Source: a bacterium (lineage in GTDB: Bacteria; 4484-113; JAFGCY01). From it: DNA of 64,000 nt. A program made the position numbers and the translations under genes. The stretch covers positions 5,092 through 69,091 of the forward strand of contig JAGRNR010000009.1 in NCBI GenBank assembly GCA_020440645.1, written 5' to 3'. Of this stretch, positions 31,954 through 36,715 are shown one piece after another (within the stretch, counting starts at the first letter, position 1; each line of letters starts with the position of its first letter). The notes under the pieces are model-generated. The model did not search any database. It saw only the letters and a program-made list of their open reading frames with translations, and had not been told where the DNA came from.

Positions 31954-32439
31954 TCAATCCTTCATCAGGTTGGCATCATCAAGCATGATGCTCTTCTTCA
32001 TGCGGTAGAAGGCGATGATGATCGCCAGCCCGACCGCAGCCTCAGCCGCAGCAACGATGATCACGAATATCGAGAACACCTGGCCCATGTTCGTCATCAC
32101 GGATTCCTCCGCGGTGAACGAGGCCAGGGTGGATTTCGGTCCGTAGTAGAAGTTGAACGCGCTCATGTTGATGTTGACGGCGTTGAGCATCAGCTCCAGC
32201 GCCAGCAGCATCCCGATCGCATTGCGCCGCGCGATCACGCCGTACAGCCCGAGGCAGAAGATGAACGCGCTGAGCACGAAGTACTGGTGGTAGTCCACGT
32301 TGGTGAACCACACCATCGGCGTGTCGCCACTTGAGGCGAACCACTGGCGCGAGGCGAACTCGATCGCCTGGATGATCGGCGCCAGGCCCTCGCTCGCCAG
32401 CGAGCCACCCTCGGACTGTTGCAGCAGCAGCAGTAACAT
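31954..32439 (-). CDS. nuoK: NuoK/ND4L homologue, extended (161 aa versus about 100)
   Basis: RRNAIGMLLALELMLNAVN and VAAAEAAVGLAIIIAFYR. The ATG at 32439 overlaps the nuoJ stop (TGATG). The track ORF (to 32652) is over-extended. Confidence 0.85.
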   Translation of the reverse strand: MLLLLLQQSEGGSLASEGLAPIIQAIEFASRQWFASSGDTPMVWFTNVDYHQYFVLSAFIFCLGLYGVIARRNAIGMLLALELMLNAVNINMSAFNFYYGPKSTLASFTAEESVMTNMGQVFSIFVIIVAAAEAAVGLAIIIAFYRMKKSIMLDDANLMKD

Positions 32440-33485
32440 CAGTCCTTCCTCACCAGGATGATCGCGCCGAGCATCGCCATGAGCAGGAGCACGCTGGCCA
32501 CTTCGAAGGGAAGTGTGTACGTTGCCATCAGCGACCAGCCGATGGCCTGGGTATTGCTTGTCAGTACTGCCGCACTGGGCGGGAACTCGGTGTTCTGCGG
32601 GAACTGCATGAACATCCCGACGAGCGCCATGAAGCCGAACAGCATCGTGCACAAAAGCGCGGCCCAGGGGCTCAGGTCAGTGTTCTGCCTGAGCTCGGTG
32701 CCGATGATGTTCTGGCTGACCATGATGCCGAACAGGAACAGCACCATGATGCCGCCGATGTAGATGATCACCTGCACCATCGCGAGGAACTCAGCGTTGA
32801 GCAGGATGAAGTAGCCGGCCACGCCGAACAGCGAAAGGATCAGCATCAGCGCGGAGTGGAACACGTTGCGCATCGTTACGCAACCGATGCCGCCGCCGAC
32901 CACGCCCGCCGTGAACAGCCAGAAGAAGAAGTTCAGCAGCCTGAGCGCGGGCACGCTGAGTGCCAGCATGCCCCAGAAGAAGGCGATGAAGCCAACGACT
33001 GTGAGGATTGCCAGCAGGCGCCGGTGGTCATGGAAGCGGTGCAGCGAAAGCTGCACGCAGGCGATCGTGCCGCCGACCAGCCCGAGGATCAGCATATTTG
33101 AAAGGTTGACAACCAGCGGCTGGAACAGCAGGGAGCTGATCACGAACACCGCCAGGCCAGCGCTGGCTGCCACCCGCAGCAGTCCGGCCTCCGCCGGCAG
33201 GCGGTTGAACAGCATCAGGTTCAGCAGGTAGAAGCCGGCGAGCATGCTGGCGCCCACCAGGATGCGTGCGTCCAGCTGCAAGGCCGCGGACCAGTCCAGT
33301 TTTCCACCCAGCGCTGCCAGCGGGGCGGCCAGCAGCGCCACAAGCACCGCGATCCCGGCCGTTGCCAGCAGCTGGCGGAAGATGCCGTCCAGCCGGTTGA
33401 CGAGCAGTCCGGCGGCCGCCAGCAACGCGGCCAGCAGGGCCACATTGCGCAGCAGCATAAGGGCGGCGGGCAGGCTGGTTTCCAT
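32439..33485 (-). CDS. nuoJ: NuoJ/ND6 homologue with an N-terminal multi-TM extension of about 170 aa
   Basis: The C-terminal half carries RNVFHSALMLILSLFGVAGYFILLNAEFLAMVQVIIYIGGIMVLFLF and PFEVASVLLLMAMLGAI. The N-terminal half is extra hydrophobic helices. Confidence 0.85.
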   Translation of the reverse strand: METSLPAALMLLRNVALLAALLAAAGLLVNRLDGIFRQLLATAGIAVLVALLAAPLAALGGKLDWSAALQLDARILVGASMLAGFYLLNLMLFNRLPAEAGLLRVAASAGLAVFVISSLLFQPLVVNLSNMLILGLVGGTIACVQLSLHRFHDHRRLLAILTVVGFIAFFWGMLALSVPALRLLNFFFWLFTAGVVGGGIGCVTMRNVFHSALMLILSLFGVAGYFILLNAEFLAMVQVIIYIGGIMVLFLFGIMVSQNIIGTELRQNTDLSPWAALLCTMLFGFMALVGMFMQFPQNTEFPPSAAVLTSNTQAIGWSLMATYTLPFEVASVLLLMAMLGAIILVRKD

Positions 33486-34480: not shown

Positions 34481-34943
34481 GCTGCACCTCCTCCACCGTT
34501 TCCGGCTCGTTGGCAGCACTGCCGCCCGCTCCTGCTGCGGCGATGTTGCGCAGCTGGGCATGGTGCCCGGGCGCCGTCACCACGAACCAGTAGAGGAAGC
34601 CGGGCAGCAACAGCAGCACCGGCCGCAGTGTGAACTGCAGTTCGTACTGCAGCCACAGCGAATACAGGCAGCCGCAGGCCGCGAAGCTCCACAGCAGGGA
34701 AGCGATGCCGGGCCGCCGCCTGAACCAGGGGTTGATCCAGGCCGCATTGCGCGCCGGCGTCAGCGGCAGCACCGCCAGCAGCAGGCCGATTGCCAGCAGG
34801 GCCAGCGGGCCGAACCACTGCGTTGTCAGCACGGGTGCCACTCCAAGCACGATGCGCAGGTACAGGCCCCAGGCCCCGGCGGCCACGAGCAGCAGCTCTC
34901 CGAGGAGATGCAGCAGGTTCTGGCTGGTTGACAGCATCCTCAT
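34473..34943 (-). CDS. Unknown small membrane protein (156 aa, about 4 TM), embedded in the complex I-like operon
   Basis: The ATG at 34943 overlaps the nuoH stop (ATGA). Sequence MRMLSTSQNLLHLLGELLLVAAGAWGLYLRIVLGV... The track ORF (to 35042) is over-extended into nuoH. Confidence 0.7.
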   Translation of the reverse strand: MRMLSTSQNLLHLLGELLLVAAGAWGLYLRIVLGVAPVLTTQWFGPLALLAIGLLLAVLPLTPARNAAWINPWFRRRPGIASLLWSFAACGCLYSLWLQYELQFTLRPVLLLLPGFLYWFVVTAPGHHAQLRNIAAAGAGGSAANEPETVEEVQHA

Positions 34944-36715
34944 CCGGTCCAGCTCACCTCCCGGCGGGGCTGCGGATGTCGGCGCTGCACGAACAGGATG
35001 CGCCAGGCCATCAGGAGGATGAACAGGCCGAAGAACAGGCACAGCACGTTGTAGCCCCAGAAGAAGGCCTTCTCGGGGACTGTCATCACCGCCAGTGCTT
35101 CAGCTGTTGTCAGCGTCTGGTACTGGGTGACGCGCTGCAGGGCGGTCACGTCGACATCGGAGACGGCCAGCTGGTTCGCGCTGAACCAGGGATGGCGGTT
35201 GACGACGCCGAGCGCGGTGGCCGCCATCACGACCACGCTGGCCGGCAGCAGGAACTTCCAGGAGAAGAACATGATCTGGTCCACGCGGATGCGCGGCATC
35301 GTGGAGCGCGCCCATATGAAGAAGAAGCACACGGCGTAGGTCTTCAGCAGGAACCAGAACAGGCTCGTCAGCCACAATCCGTCGGGGCCGAGGAACATCG
35401 GGCCCTTCCAGCCGCCGAAGAAGCAGACGGTCATGATCGCGCTGACGATGAACACGTTGGAGTACTCGGCGACATAGAACAGCGCGAAGCGCATCCCGCT
35501 GTACTCCACCAGGTAGCCGCCCAAGAGCTCGTTCTGCGCTTCCGGCAGGTCAAAGGGCGGGCGGTTGGTCTCGGCAAGGCTGACAACGAGGTAGATGATG
35601 AAGGCCGGGAACAGCGGCAGGATGCCCCAGGTCATCGTCTGGCGCTGCACGATCTCCGTCAGGTTCAGCGAACCGGCAAAGATGGCAACGCACAGCAGGC
35701 TCATCAGCATCGGGATTTCGTAGGTCAGCAGCATCGCGGCCTCGCGCATCGCGCCGACCAGTGCATATTTGTTGTTGGAGGCGTAGCCGGACATGATCAC
35801 GGCCACGAGGAACATCGCAAAGTCGGCGATGATCAGGAGCAGGCCGACATTCAGGTCCTGGATCATGTAGTAGATGATCTGCCCGTCGACAGCCGCCACG
35901 CCGAACGGGATCACCACCCAGCTCAGGAGCGCCGGCAGGTAGACGAGGATCGGCGCGATCAGGTACAGCAGCTTGTCAGCGCTGAGCGGAACGGTGTCTT
36001 CCTTGAAGAAGATCTTGATCGTGTCGTAGAAGCCCTGGCGCCAGTAGTAGCGCAGCATGTAGCTCATGTAGAGCACGAAGGCGACCACGGTGCACAGCAC
36101 GGTGAGCTGCGGCAAAAACGGGATGTGCGCCTTCGGGATGAAGCCCAGCAGGAGAGCGACGAGCATGCCACCGCAGGACGCGAGGGATGGCCAGGCCAGC
36201 AGTGACAGCAGCGTTGCCAGGAAGCGCCAGACGGAGGTCTGCGCGGCCTGCATCCGGCCGAGCGCTGGCAGGATCATCAAGCGGTTGATCAGCCCCATCA
36301 TGCCCACGGCGAAGAACAGGATGATCCAGCCGCCGAACTGTTGCCAGCCGGCGGTGCCGCCGGTCCAGTAGTTGATGCCGTACAGCAGCGCGGGCAGGCC
36401 GATCAGCACGCCGATCTGCAGGAAGATCCGCCGGAAGCGCTGCGGGGTGACCTCGCCGTACTCCTGCGGGCCGCGGCGGCCCTGCATGCGCGCCATCAGG
36501 CGGCGTTCCCAGACCTGCAGGCCGATGGTGATCATCAGCTCCAGGAGGAAGATCAGCAGGAGCGCCGTCACCAACATGATGCCGTTGGCAACCTCCGGGC
36601 TGAAGCGCAGGCCGGGCAGCGGCTCGGTGTTGAGCCAGGCGCGCATCGCCTCCCAGACGGTGCGGGCCTCGTCCATGTCGTAGCGCTGCTGCAGGATTGC
36701 CAGCATCGGGAGCAT
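34940..36715 (-). CDS. nuoH: NuoH/ND1 homologue, enlarged (591 aa) by a multi-TM insertion after TM1
   Basis: [16 protein letters not shown], then about 170 inserted residues, then [37 protein letters not shown] and [12 protein letters not shown]. The ATG at 36715 overlaps the nuoD stop (TGATG). Confidence 0.85.
   Translation of the reverse strand: [591 protein letters not shown]

What the first reader, a model, noticed from the sequence alone, without database searches (positions are those of the whole stretch)
31954..36715. Enlarged H, J and K homologues: extra TM helices inserted where the quinone channel normally forms
The NuoH homologue is 591 aa (typical is about 330-400). After the conserved Q.R.GP motif (MQGRRGPQ), about 170 hydrophobic residues are inserted before the IKIFFKED block. 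That is the TM1-TM2 loop region, which normally lines the quinone entry. The NuoJ homologue carries an N-terminal multi-TM extension of about 170 aa. The NuoK homologue is 161 aa, with an N-terminal extension of about 50 aa and an insertion before the last helix. The remodelling is concentrated at the junction of the peripheral and membrane arms, consistent with a changed coupling mechanism.
Basis: partly seen in the sequence, partly recalled or inferred. Interest (0 to 1): 0.5.

Follow-up and report, generated by a model that had tools for sequence, protein, structure and literature searches.

The report
Cofactor-less complex I with extra helices
The oversized membrane subunits are real, and they belong to a rare bacterial relative of respiratory complex I that has lost every iron-sulfur and quinone-binding residue but keeps its ion-pumping residues, so it is very unlikely to work as a respiratory enzyme.

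Summary
NuoH is 591 aa. It has a net insert of about 134 aa (four predicted TM helices) between the RxGP motif and amphipathic helix AH1. NuoJ carries a 183-aa, roughly six-TM N-terminal extension. NuoK is 161 aa. All starts overlap the preceding stop codon, the frames are kept in relatives, and dN/dS is below 1.

The wider context matters more. The genes form an 11-gene set: nuoA and nuoB about 4 kb upstream, then C-D-H-x1-x2-J-K-L-M. NuoB has no cluster-N2 cysteines. ORF x2 is a membrane-anchored NuoI that has lost all eight cluster cysteines. NuoD has lost the quinone-ligand His (now Pro) and Tyr (now Trp). The same substitutions are fixed in all 48 closest NuoB clusters. NuoH's charged residues and TM5-6 loop, both NuoK glutamates and the Lys/Glu residues of NuoL and NuoM are kept under strong purifying selection.

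Sister complexes keep every redox ligand. They lack the H insert, the J extension and x1, but they already have the K features and the H C-terminal extension.

Best reading: a redox-dead derivative of complex I from candidate phylum UBP7, probably a gradient-driven ion translocator. That function is inferred. No description was found in the literature searched.

The parts
43002..43400 (-). nuoA-like gene (132 aa, 3 TM). It keeps the YESG loop motif and the FDVD carboxylates.
   Evidence: The orthologue sits directly upstream of nuoB in L001, L004, L008 and L009.
42559..43011 (-). nuoB-like gene (150 aa) with no cysteines. GLACCA has become GLDYAT, GxCA has become GAGA, and PGCPP has become PGDPP. 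There are no ligands for cluster N2.
   Evidence: Alignment to T. thermophilus Nqo6. Clade alignment. The same pattern occurs in all 48 closest clusters.
37850..38434 (-). nuoC-like gene (194 aa), the first gene of the C-to-M operon. It is preceded by an intergenic region of about 550 bp.
   Evidence: Pfam PF00329, E=1e-15. Upstream sequence.
36715..37869 (-). nuoD-like gene (384 aa). The quinone-site His is now Pro (GPQHPSLPSP), the Tyr is now Trp (RCEWL) and the Asp is now Glu (LEAGA). The protein is closest to complex I 49-kDa subunits.
   Evidence: E=2.6e-84 to the 49-kDa subunit, against 4e-44 to the MBH large subunit. The substitutions are conserved in the clade. dN/dS is 0.15.
34940..36715 (-). 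nuoH-like gene (591 aa, about 13 TM helices). The core is fully conserved, including the TM5-6 loop [26 protein letters not shown].
   Evidence: Core dN/dS is 0.07.
36038..36451 (-). Insert in NuoH (residues about 89-226): four predicted TM helices between the RxGP motif and AH1.
   Evidence: dN/dS is 0.53. Relatives carry either 2 or 4 helices here.
34943..35200 (-). C-terminal extension of NuoH (residues 506-591): a beta-hairpin plus one extra TM helix. It is shared with the redox-competent sister complexes.
34473..34943 (-). ORF x1 (156 aa, about 4 TM helices). It matches no known family, evolves fast, and is found only in the cofactor-less clade.
   Evidence: dN/dS is 0.47. An ORF of 145-160 aa occupies this position in L001, L002 and L004. 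It is absent from L003, L010 and L011.
33485..34480 (-). ORF x2 (331 aa): a NuoI derivative with a membrane anchor of about 4 TM helices and a ferredoxin-like C-terminal domain. It contains no cysteines, and both CxxCxxCxxxCP motifs are gone.
32439..33485 (-). nuoJ-like gene (348 aa, about 11 TM helices). The core is residues 184-348 and keeps the TM3 motif YIGGIMVLFLF.
32937..33485 (-). N-terminal extension of NuoJ (residues 1-183, about 6 TM helices). In relatives it varies from about 2 to 6 helices. It is absent from the sister complexes.
   Evidence: dN/dS is 0.42.
31954..32439 (-). nuoK-like gene (161 aa). It has a non-TM N-terminal extension (residues 1-50), a loop insert of about 13 aa (residues about 103-116; window 32092-32133), and keeps both key glutamates (E82, E133).
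   Evidence: The same extension and loop insert occur in the redox-competent relatives.
29756..31918 (-). nuoL-like antiporter-type subunit (720 aa). It keeps the TM5 Glu, TM7 Lys, TM8 His, TM11 Lys and TM12 Lys-Asp motifs.
   Evidence: Pfam PF00361. The motifs were read directly from the translation.
28055..29755 (-). nuoM-like antiporter-type subunit (566 aa). It keeps the TM5 Glu, TM7 Lys, TM8 Lys and TM12 Glu.
   Evidence: Alignment to M. smegmatis NuoM, E=3e-73.

Best explanation
The enlarged H, J and K proteins are genuine subunits of an 11-protein assembly (A, B, C, D, H, x1, I*, J, K, L, M) that descends from a true complex I but can no longer transfer electrons.

Shown from sequence:
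- All three iron-sulfur sites of the quinone module (N2, N6a, N6b) have lost their cysteine ligands.
- The quinone head-group ligands have been replaced.
- These replacements are fixed across the clade.
- The whole ion-translocation and coupling apparatus is under strong purifying selection: the NuoH charged residues and TM5-6 loop, the NuoA loop, NuoJ TM3, the NuoK glutamates, and the Lys/Glu chain of NuoL and NuoM.

Correlated, also shown:
- The loss coincides with about 14 new TM helices: 4 in H, about 6 in J and 4 in x1.
- These add to about 5 that already exist in the redox-competent sister complexes: the roughly 4-TM anchor of NuoI and one C-terminal helix on H.

Inferred:
- The new helices pack around the heel of the membrane arm, at and beside the former quinone portal (TM1/AH1/TM6), and wall it off or reshape it.
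- The machine now runs on an ion gradient instead of redox energy. Protons moving through L, M and the E-channel are coupled to a second ion or to gating of the former quinone cavity. That would make it an Mrp-like secondary cation/proton translocator, with the cofactor-less B-C-D-I* cap serving as the gated cytoplasmic lid.
For: - Gene set and overlapping starts. The same genes form one contiguous operon in L001 and L004.
- Loss of the N2 cysteines. It is seen in 48 of the 48 closest NuoB clusters.
- x2 is NuoI without cysteines.
- NuoD His to Pro, Tyr to Trp and Asp to Glu, all conserved in the clade.
- Retained ion-translocation residues: H, K, J, M and L.
- Purifying selection: dN/dS is 0.07-0.15 for the H, J and K cores and for D, and 0.3-0.5 for the added segments.
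- Sister complexes in three loci keep all cysteines and the His and Tyr. They lack the H insert, the J extension and x1.
- The H insert always comes as 2 or 4 helices, which preserves the membrane topology.
- The AlphaFold model is confident in the insert, and its core matches NuoH/ND1.
Against: - There is no direct evidence for any transport activity or for which ion is moved.
- No MrpE, F or G-like subunits or other known antiporter families were found.
- The position of the new helices relative to the quinone portal was not measured.
- The high conservation of NuoD and of the coupling loops could equally mean that the cavity binds a ligand, which favours the rival 'work on a hydrophobic substrate'.
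- It is unknown whether these genomes also carry a normal complex I or make quinones.
- The added segments evolve 4-7 times faster than the cores, so they may be passive scaffold and not functional elements.
Confidence: 0.5

Rival explanations
1. A gradient-driven machine that does work on a hydrophobic or other ligand. The former quinone cavity still opens to the membrane through a portal rebuilt by the new helices. Proton flow through L and M drives its opening and closing, to bind, extract or move a lipid-like molecule (a quinone or isoprenoid without redox chemistry, or a lipid-linked intermediate).
For: - The cavity-forming parts are as conserved as the pump itself: NuoD dN/dS is 0.15, and the NuoH TM5-6 loop and the NuoA loop are kept.
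- The replacement residues at the old site (Pro, Trp, Glu; Asp-Tyr, Gly, Asp) are fixed, not drifting.
- The new helices are inserted exactly at the element that frames the lipid-side entrance.
Against: - No candidate substrate, partner enzyme or conserved neighbouring gene was found. The flanking genes differ between loci.
- The insert is weakly constrained (dN/dS 0.53) and varies between 2 and 4 helices. That is unexpected for a specific substrate gate.
Confidence: 0.2
2. A structural, sensory or regulatory pseudo-enzyme. The complex no longer transports anything at a useful rate and acts as a membrane scaffold or as a sensor of pH or membrane potential.
For: - In the window and in L002 the operon is split by a hybrid histidine kinase gene.
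- All catalytic cofactors are gone.
Against: - The kinase is absent from the contiguous operons of L001, L004, L008 and L009.
- Every proton-transfer residue in K, L, M and H is kept under strong purifying selection. A scaffold would not need them.
Confidence: 0.1
3. It is still an oxidoreductase that uses unconventional cofactors. Examples would be metal sites built from the new Asp, Tyr and His residues, or hemes held in the added TM helices, with electrons delivered by an unlinked partner.
For: - The substitutions at the old N2 site include two conserved Asp and one Tyr.
- NuoD gains a conserved GHRxH motif.
- About 14 new TM helices could in principle hold hemes.
Against: - There are no cysteines in NuoB or in x2.
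- No His pair is conserved in the H insert.
- No cofactor-binding family was detected in any added segment.
- No electron-input module (E, F, G or other) lies in or next to any of the operons.
Confidence: 0.06
4. An annotation or assembly artefact, or a decaying operon. The extra segments would be untranslated upstream sequence, frameshift fusions or pseudogene remnants.
For: The added segments evolve faster than the cores and match no known family.
Against: - The starts overlap the preceding stop codons.
- The same architecture appears in a closed 4.1-Mb genome and in dozens of independent metagenome contigs.
- The frames are kept over deep divergence, and dN/dS is below 1 in the one unsaturated comparison, against L005.
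- The helices come in pairs.
- The structure models are confident.
Confidence: 0.03

Closest known systems
Respiratory complex I / NDH-1 (Nuo; 11-subunit core without the NADH module)
   Same: - Homologues of A, B, C, D, H, I, J, K, L and M are present in the usual gene order.
- NuoD and NuoH are closest to genuine complex I subunits (E=1e-84 and 1e-62).
- All conserved charged residues of the E-channel and of the antiporter-type subunits are kept.
   Different: - No ligands for N2, N6a or N6b.
- No quinone-ligand His or Tyr.
- No NuoN and no E, F or G.
- One extra subunit (x1).
- About 19 more TM helices in H, J, x1 and I* than a standard core.
Uncharacterised 10-subunit sister complexes (loci L003, L010, L011; for example 'Planctomycetales bacterium 4484_113'). 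This is my own grouping and not a named family.
   Same: - The same gene order, with only L and M as antiporter-type subunits.
- A membrane-anchored NuoI.
- The NuoH N- and C-terminal extensions.
- The NuoK N-terminal extension and loop insert.
   Different: - They keep all four N2 cysteines, both NuoI cluster motifs and the NuoD His, Tyr and Asp.
- They have no H insert, no J extension and no x1.
Mrp multisubunit cation/proton antiporter
   Same: - It is a redox-independent membrane complex built from NuoL/M-type and NuoK-type subunits, driven by an ion gradient. This is the functional analogy I propose.
- MrpA and MrpD chains are detectable relatives of the M-like subunit.
   Different: - Mrp has no NuoH, A, B, C, D or I homologues.
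- It has MrpB, E, F and G, which were not detected here.
Ehr (energy-converting hydrogenase-related) complexes, MBH and MBS
   Same: They are members of the complex I superfamily in which the NuoD-like subunit has lost its ancestral catalytic ligands, and their function is uncertain (PMC6349859).
   Different: - Ehr sits on the hydrogenase side of the family and is assumed to be redox-driven through a partner.
- The proteins here are much closer to complex I than to MBH or FHL.
- They lack the iron-sulfur ligands altogether.
DAB and NDH-1MS (CupA) CO2-uptake systems
   Same: They are precedents for antiporter-type subunits being used for non-respiratory, gradient-coupled chemistry. This is from my own knowledge.
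   Different: - No carbonic-anhydrase-like or Cup-like protein is present.
- Those systems do not keep a cofactor-less quinone module.

Membership tests
Complex I (proton-pumping quinone oxidoreductase) | NuoB/PSST supplies four cysteines for cluster N2 | tested here: not met
   The protein has no cysteines. GLACCA is now GLDYAT, GxCA is now GAGA, and PGCPP is now PGDPP. The same holds in all 48 closest clusters.
Complex I (proton-pumping quinone oxidoreductase) | NuoI/TYKY has two CxxCxxCxxxCP motifs (clusters N6a and N6b) | tested here: not met
   x2 is the NuoI homologue. It has no cysteines, and both motifs are replaced.
Complex I (proton-pumping quinone oxidoreductase) | NuoD/49-kDa supplies the quinone head-group ligands His and Tyr, with a partner Asp | tested here: not met
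   His is now Pro (or Ala/Val in relatives), Tyr is now Trp and Asp is now Glu. The changes are conserved in seven loci.
Complex I (proton-pumping quinone oxidoreductase) | NuoH/ND1 fold with the conserved charged residues and the TM5-6 loop | tested here: met
   Pfam PF00146, E=3e-97. The invariant residues are retained. Foldseek target TM-score to NuoH/ND1 is 0.64-0.85.
Complex I (proton-pumping quinone oxidoreductase) | NuoK TM2 and TM3 glutamates; NuoJ TM3 motif; Lys/Glu chain in the antiporter-type subunits | tested here: met
   The NuoL motifs were read.
Complex I (proton-pumping quinone oxidoreductase) | Three antiporter-type subunits (L, M, N) and an electron-input module | tested here: not met
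   Only L and M are present, and no E, F or G lies in or next to the operon in the window or in nine related loci. Copies elsewhere in the genome could not be checked.
Mrp cation/proton antiporter | The MrpA-G subunit set, including MrpB, E, F and G, with no NuoH, B, C or D | tested here: not met
   No Pfam match to Mrp-specific subunits in x1, x2 or the added segments. NuoH, B, C and D homologues are present.
Mrp cation/proton antiporter | Gradient-driven cation/proton exchange activity | not testable with these tools
   This needs transport assays or complementation.
Ehr / group-4 hydrogenase-related complexes | Large subunit closer to [NiFe]-hydrogenase or MBH large subunits than to NuoD | tested here: not met
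   E=2.6e-84 to complex I 49-kDa subunits, against 4e-44 (MBH) and 5e-32 (FHL).

The most novel reading that the evidence does not exclude
A true complex I evolved backwards into a redox-independent machine. The former N2 and quinone pocket is now lined by clade-fixed Asp, Tyr, Asp, Glu and Trp residues. In this reading it has become an ion-binding or ligand-gating chamber whose occupancy replaces quinone chemistry as the trigger of the proton relay. The new ring of TM helices on H, J, x1 and I* seals or re-routes the old lipid-side portal. If so, this would be a natural experiment that separates complex I's coupling mechanism from electron transfer.
Probability: 0.3. Interest if true: 0.85.

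Novelty: new variant of a known kind. Interest (0 to 1): 0.7.

Why it matters
How events in the quinone cavity drive proton pumping 200 Å away is still the central open question for complex I. This clade keeps the cavity-forming subunits, the coupling loops and the complete proton-transfer chain under strong selection, while every redox cofactor ligand has been removed.

If the complex is active, it shows that the conformational and electrostatic relay can be driven by something other than quinone reduction. It would give structural biologists a cofactor-free, smaller (two antiporter-type subunits) version to study.

It would also be the first documented case, as far as my searches reach, of a respiratory complex I reverting towards an Mrp-like secondary transporter. 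All public annotation currently calls these genes 'NADH-quinone oxidoreductase subunit' or 'hypothetical protein'. That would mislead metabolic reconstructions of UBP7 bacteria.

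Tried and rejected
- Profile of x2 against PDB sequences. It found no NuoI, only weak TM-composition hits to TRPC channels (E of about 0.01 or weaker), which I dismissed. The link to NuoI came instead from the TM-anchored NuoI of the sister complexes and from fold comparison.
- Hits of x2 to two giant repeat proteins in the representative library. These are summed weak repeats to an Ig-like adhesin; each piece has E=0.012. They are spurious.
- Pfam at E up to 10 on the H insert, the J extension, the K extension, x1, x2 and the 265-aa ORF between nuoB and the kinase. 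Nothing was found.
- All-against-all BLASTP of the added segments, to test whether they are duplicates of each other or of NuoA or NuoJ. Nothing was significant; the best E was 0.06.
- dN/dS against L001. Synonymous sites are saturated, so only the L005 comparison was used.
- Literature searches for Ehr, cofactor-less or redox-inactive complex I, UBP7 and pseudoenzyme. None describes this. The original Ehr paper is not held.
- Rejected idea: NuoI is simply missing. It is present as x2.
- Rejected idea: the K-subunit changes are part of the redox loss. They also occur in the redox-competent relatives.
- Corrected reading: I first read the tandem N2 cysteines as Cys-Cys to Asp-Tyr. The gap-free alignment gives Ala-Cys-Cys to Asp-Tyr-Ala/Ser.

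Full report
**What is at the coordinates**

The region 31954-36715 lies inside a run of tightly packed minus-strand genes. Pfam assigns them as follows:
- NuoC-like, 38434..37850
- NuoD-like, 37869..36715
- NuoH-like, 36715..34940
- two ORFs with no family match: x1 (34943..34473) and x2 (34480..33485)
- NuoJ-like, 33485..32439
- NuoK-like, 32439..31954
- NuoL-like, 31918..29756
- NuoM-like, 29755..28055

From H through K, each start codon overlaps the stop codon of the gene before it.

NuoA-like (43400..43002) and NuoB-like (43011..42559) genes lie about 4 kb upstream. They are separated from nuoC by a hybrid histidine kinase on the other strand and a few small ORFs. In related contigs the eleven genes form one contiguous operon (L001 and L004). 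In others they show the same split as here (L002).

**Checking the observation**

*NuoH.*
- phmmer against solved structures aligns residues 47-88 to TM1 and the RxGP motif of NuoH/ND1, and residues 227-502 to the rest of the protein.
- The distance from RxGP to the D.IK motif of amphipathic helix AH1 is 147 aa here. It is 13-14 aa in ordinary and sister NuoH proteins. The net insert is therefore about 134 aa, not about 170.
- Hydropathy gives four TM segments in the insert.
- An AlphaFold model built on 68 sequences has a mean pLDDT of 84.7. It places four confident helices at 91-117, 124-154, 161-190 and 201-236. The last one runs straight into AH1.
- The loop charges obey the positive-inside rule.
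- The model core matches NuoH/ND1 chains with a target TM-score of 0.64-0.85, while only about 45% of the query is covered.
- NuoH also has an N-terminal extension of about 38 aa and a C-terminal extension of about 86 aa, made of a beta-hairpin and one more TM helix.

*NuoJ.* The core is residues 184-348. It is preceded by about six predicted TM helices.

*NuoK.* The core is residues 52-160, with an insert of about 13 aa in the TM2-TM3 loop. The 50-residue N-terminal extension is not hydrophobic.

*Are the segments translated?* Yes.
- The frames are preserved in relatives down to about 58% identity.
- Across the family the H insert is always two or four helices, as the topology requires.
- dN/dS against the roughly 80%-identical locus L005 is 0.53 (H insert), 0.42 (J extension) and 0.32 (K extension). 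The cores give 0.07, 0.09 and 0.12.
- The additions are therefore under purifying selection, but 3-8 times more relaxed than the cores.

**What the complex is**

The decisive facts lie mostly outside the three proteins.

1. *NuoB has no cysteine.* Against T. thermophilus Nqo6, GLACCA reads GLDYAT, GACASSGG reads GAGAISGA, and PGCPP reads PGDPP. All four ligands of cluster N2 are gone.

2. *x2 is NuoI.*
   - It aligns to the 358-aa membrane-anchored NuoI of a sister complex with E=6e-12.
   - A search of 1.84 billion representatives finds the same kind of Fer4-bearing protein at E=6e-12.
   - In the alignment, CISCKACERICPD is replaced by EEALRIIAAD, and RCSFCGLCEDVCP by RYDHDPALGELKR.
   - x2 contains no cysteine.

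3. *NuoD has lost its quinone ligands.* NuoD is closest to genuine 49-kDa subunits: E=2.6e-84, against 4e-44 for the MBH large subunit. Its quinone-ligand His is now Pro (GPQHPSLPSP) and its Tyr is now Trp (RCEWL). The partner Asp is now Glu. The role of the His-Asp pair is described in PMC10212512.

4. *The changes are fixed, not drifting.* They recur in all seven loci of the clade. The 48 closest NuoB clusters (61% identity or more) all carry Asp-Tyr(His), Gly(Asn) and Asp at these positions. Every more distant hit has the cysteines.

**What is retained**

- All family-invariant charged residues of NuoH are kept, together with the TM5-6 loop [26 protein letters not shown]. Only eight core positions distinguish the clade from other NuoH proteins.
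- NuoK keeps both glutamates.
- NuoJ keeps its TM3 motif.
- NuoA keeps YESG and FDVD.
- NuoM keeps GluTM5, LysTM7, LysTM8 and GluTM12.
- NuoL keeps the equivalent motifs (read).
- NuoD is itself strongly constrained, with dN/dS of 0.15.

**Comparison with the sister group**

NuoH relatives fall into three tiers.
- The clade described here (505-620 aa).
- A sister tier of 442-485 aa.
- Ordinary NuoH proteins of 334-376 aa.

Three sister loci (L003, L010, L011) have the gene order A-B-C-D-H-I-J-K-L-M. They have a membrane-anchored, cysteine-bearing NuoI, intact N2 cysteines and an intact NuoD His, Tyr and Asp. They already possess the NuoH terminal extensions and both NuoK features. They have no H insert, a five-TM NuoJ and no x1.

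So the H insert, the J extension and x1 appeared together with the loss of the redox ligands. The K changes are older and unrelated to that loss.

**Distribution**

- The x2 family has only 43 clusters among 5.8 billion sequences, all labelled hypothetical. It has 21 representatives among 1.84 billion.
- A scan of one genome per GTDB species finds it in five species. All are unclassified or 'Planctomycetales' MAGs labelled UBP7.
- One of these is the closed 4.1-Mb genome CP060262.1. Its proteins are 91-100% identical to the window's (97% or more for all but x1 and NuoJ), so it is essentially the same species.

**Mechanism**

*Shown:* the assembly cannot carry electrons by any known complex I route, yet its ion-transfer and coupling elements are maintained by selection.

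*Inferred:*
- The added helices surround the heel of the membrane arm. The four in NuoH are inserted between TM1 and AH1. From my own knowledge of the Thermus structure, these two elements and TM6 frame the narrow lipid-side quinone entrance. PMC10212512 describes that entrance and the loops lining the cavity.
- In the model, the last inserted helix is continuous with AH1, so the portal geometry must differ from the canonical one.
- My best guess is a gradient-driven, Mrp-like cation/proton translocator. The cofactor-less B-C-D-I* cap would act as the gated cytoplasmic lid of the former quinone cavity.
- The main rival is a proton-driven device that handles a hydrophobic ligand in that cavity.
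- Neither reading can be distinguished with these tools. No conserved neighbouring genes give a hint.

**Novelty**

Seven full-text searches found nothing describing a complex I homologue without iron-sulfur or quinone ligands.
- Ehr complexes are the nearest concept (PMC6349859). They belong to the hydrogenase branch and are assumed to be redox-driven.
- A 2025 survey of Nuo variants classifies by subunit presence only (PMC12361115).

I rate this as a new variant of a known kind. It would surprise specialists, and it offers a natural system for studying complex I coupling without electron transfer.

**Limits**

- Function is inferred from sequence only.
- The position of the new helices relative to the portal was not measured.
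- It is unknown whether these genomes also contain a canonical complex I.
- The literature library is incomplete.

Noticed in passing
window 38983-40836 (+), with 41742-42539 (-) and small ORFs at 40852-41684: The nuoAB pair is separated from nuoC-M by a hybrid histidine kinase (PAS-HisKA-HATPase-REC in the L002 orthologue) and by a 265-aa ORF with no family match. The same split occurs in L002 (84% relative). L001, L004, L008 and L009 have a contiguous operon instead.
   Followed up: partly
loci L003, L010, L011 (sister complexes): This is an apparently undescribed 10-subunit complex I variant (A-B-C-D-H-I-J-K-L-M). NuoI is 340-360 aa and anchored by about 4 TM helices. Only two antiporter-type subunits are present, and there is no electron-input module. 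All redox ligands are intact. In L003 it lies next to multiheme cytochrome and Ni_hydr_CYTB genes.
   Followed up: partly
window NuoD-like, motif SGHRHHHGW (about 37390-37420, minus strand): The canonical SGAR(M/L)H motif of NuoD has become His-rich: GHRHHHGW here, GHRWHHGW or GHRWHGAY in relatives. GHRxH is conserved across the clade. Its meaning is unknown.
   Followed up: no
L008 6668-7560 and the matching region of L009: In the two most divergent members there is a gap of about 750-900 nt between nuoD and nuoH. It contains a possible extra ORF (178 aa, 6865..7401 in L008) that the window lacks.
   Followed up: no
window 28000-36000: AT skew is strongly positive (0.15-0.19) across the membrane-subunit genes. 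This probably reflects T-rich hydrophobic codons on the coding (minus) strand and is not a replication signal.
   Followed up: no
window 21025-24071 (+): A flagellar stator cluster is present: a MotA-like ORF, MotB (MotB_plug plus OmpA) and a FliL-like protein. The organism therefore has another ion-gradient consumer.
   Followed up: no
window 43454-52914 (-): A run of four large secreted proteins rich in PKD domains lies just upstream of nuoA. An orthologous PKD protein also precedes nuoA in L002.
   Followed up: no
x2 (window 33485-34480), residues 121-127: The motif DP.D.IHP lies just after the third TM helix of x2. It is nearly invariant in the clade. The two Asp residues are also present in the redox-competent NuoI of L003. 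It could be a surface metal or ion site.
   Followed up: no
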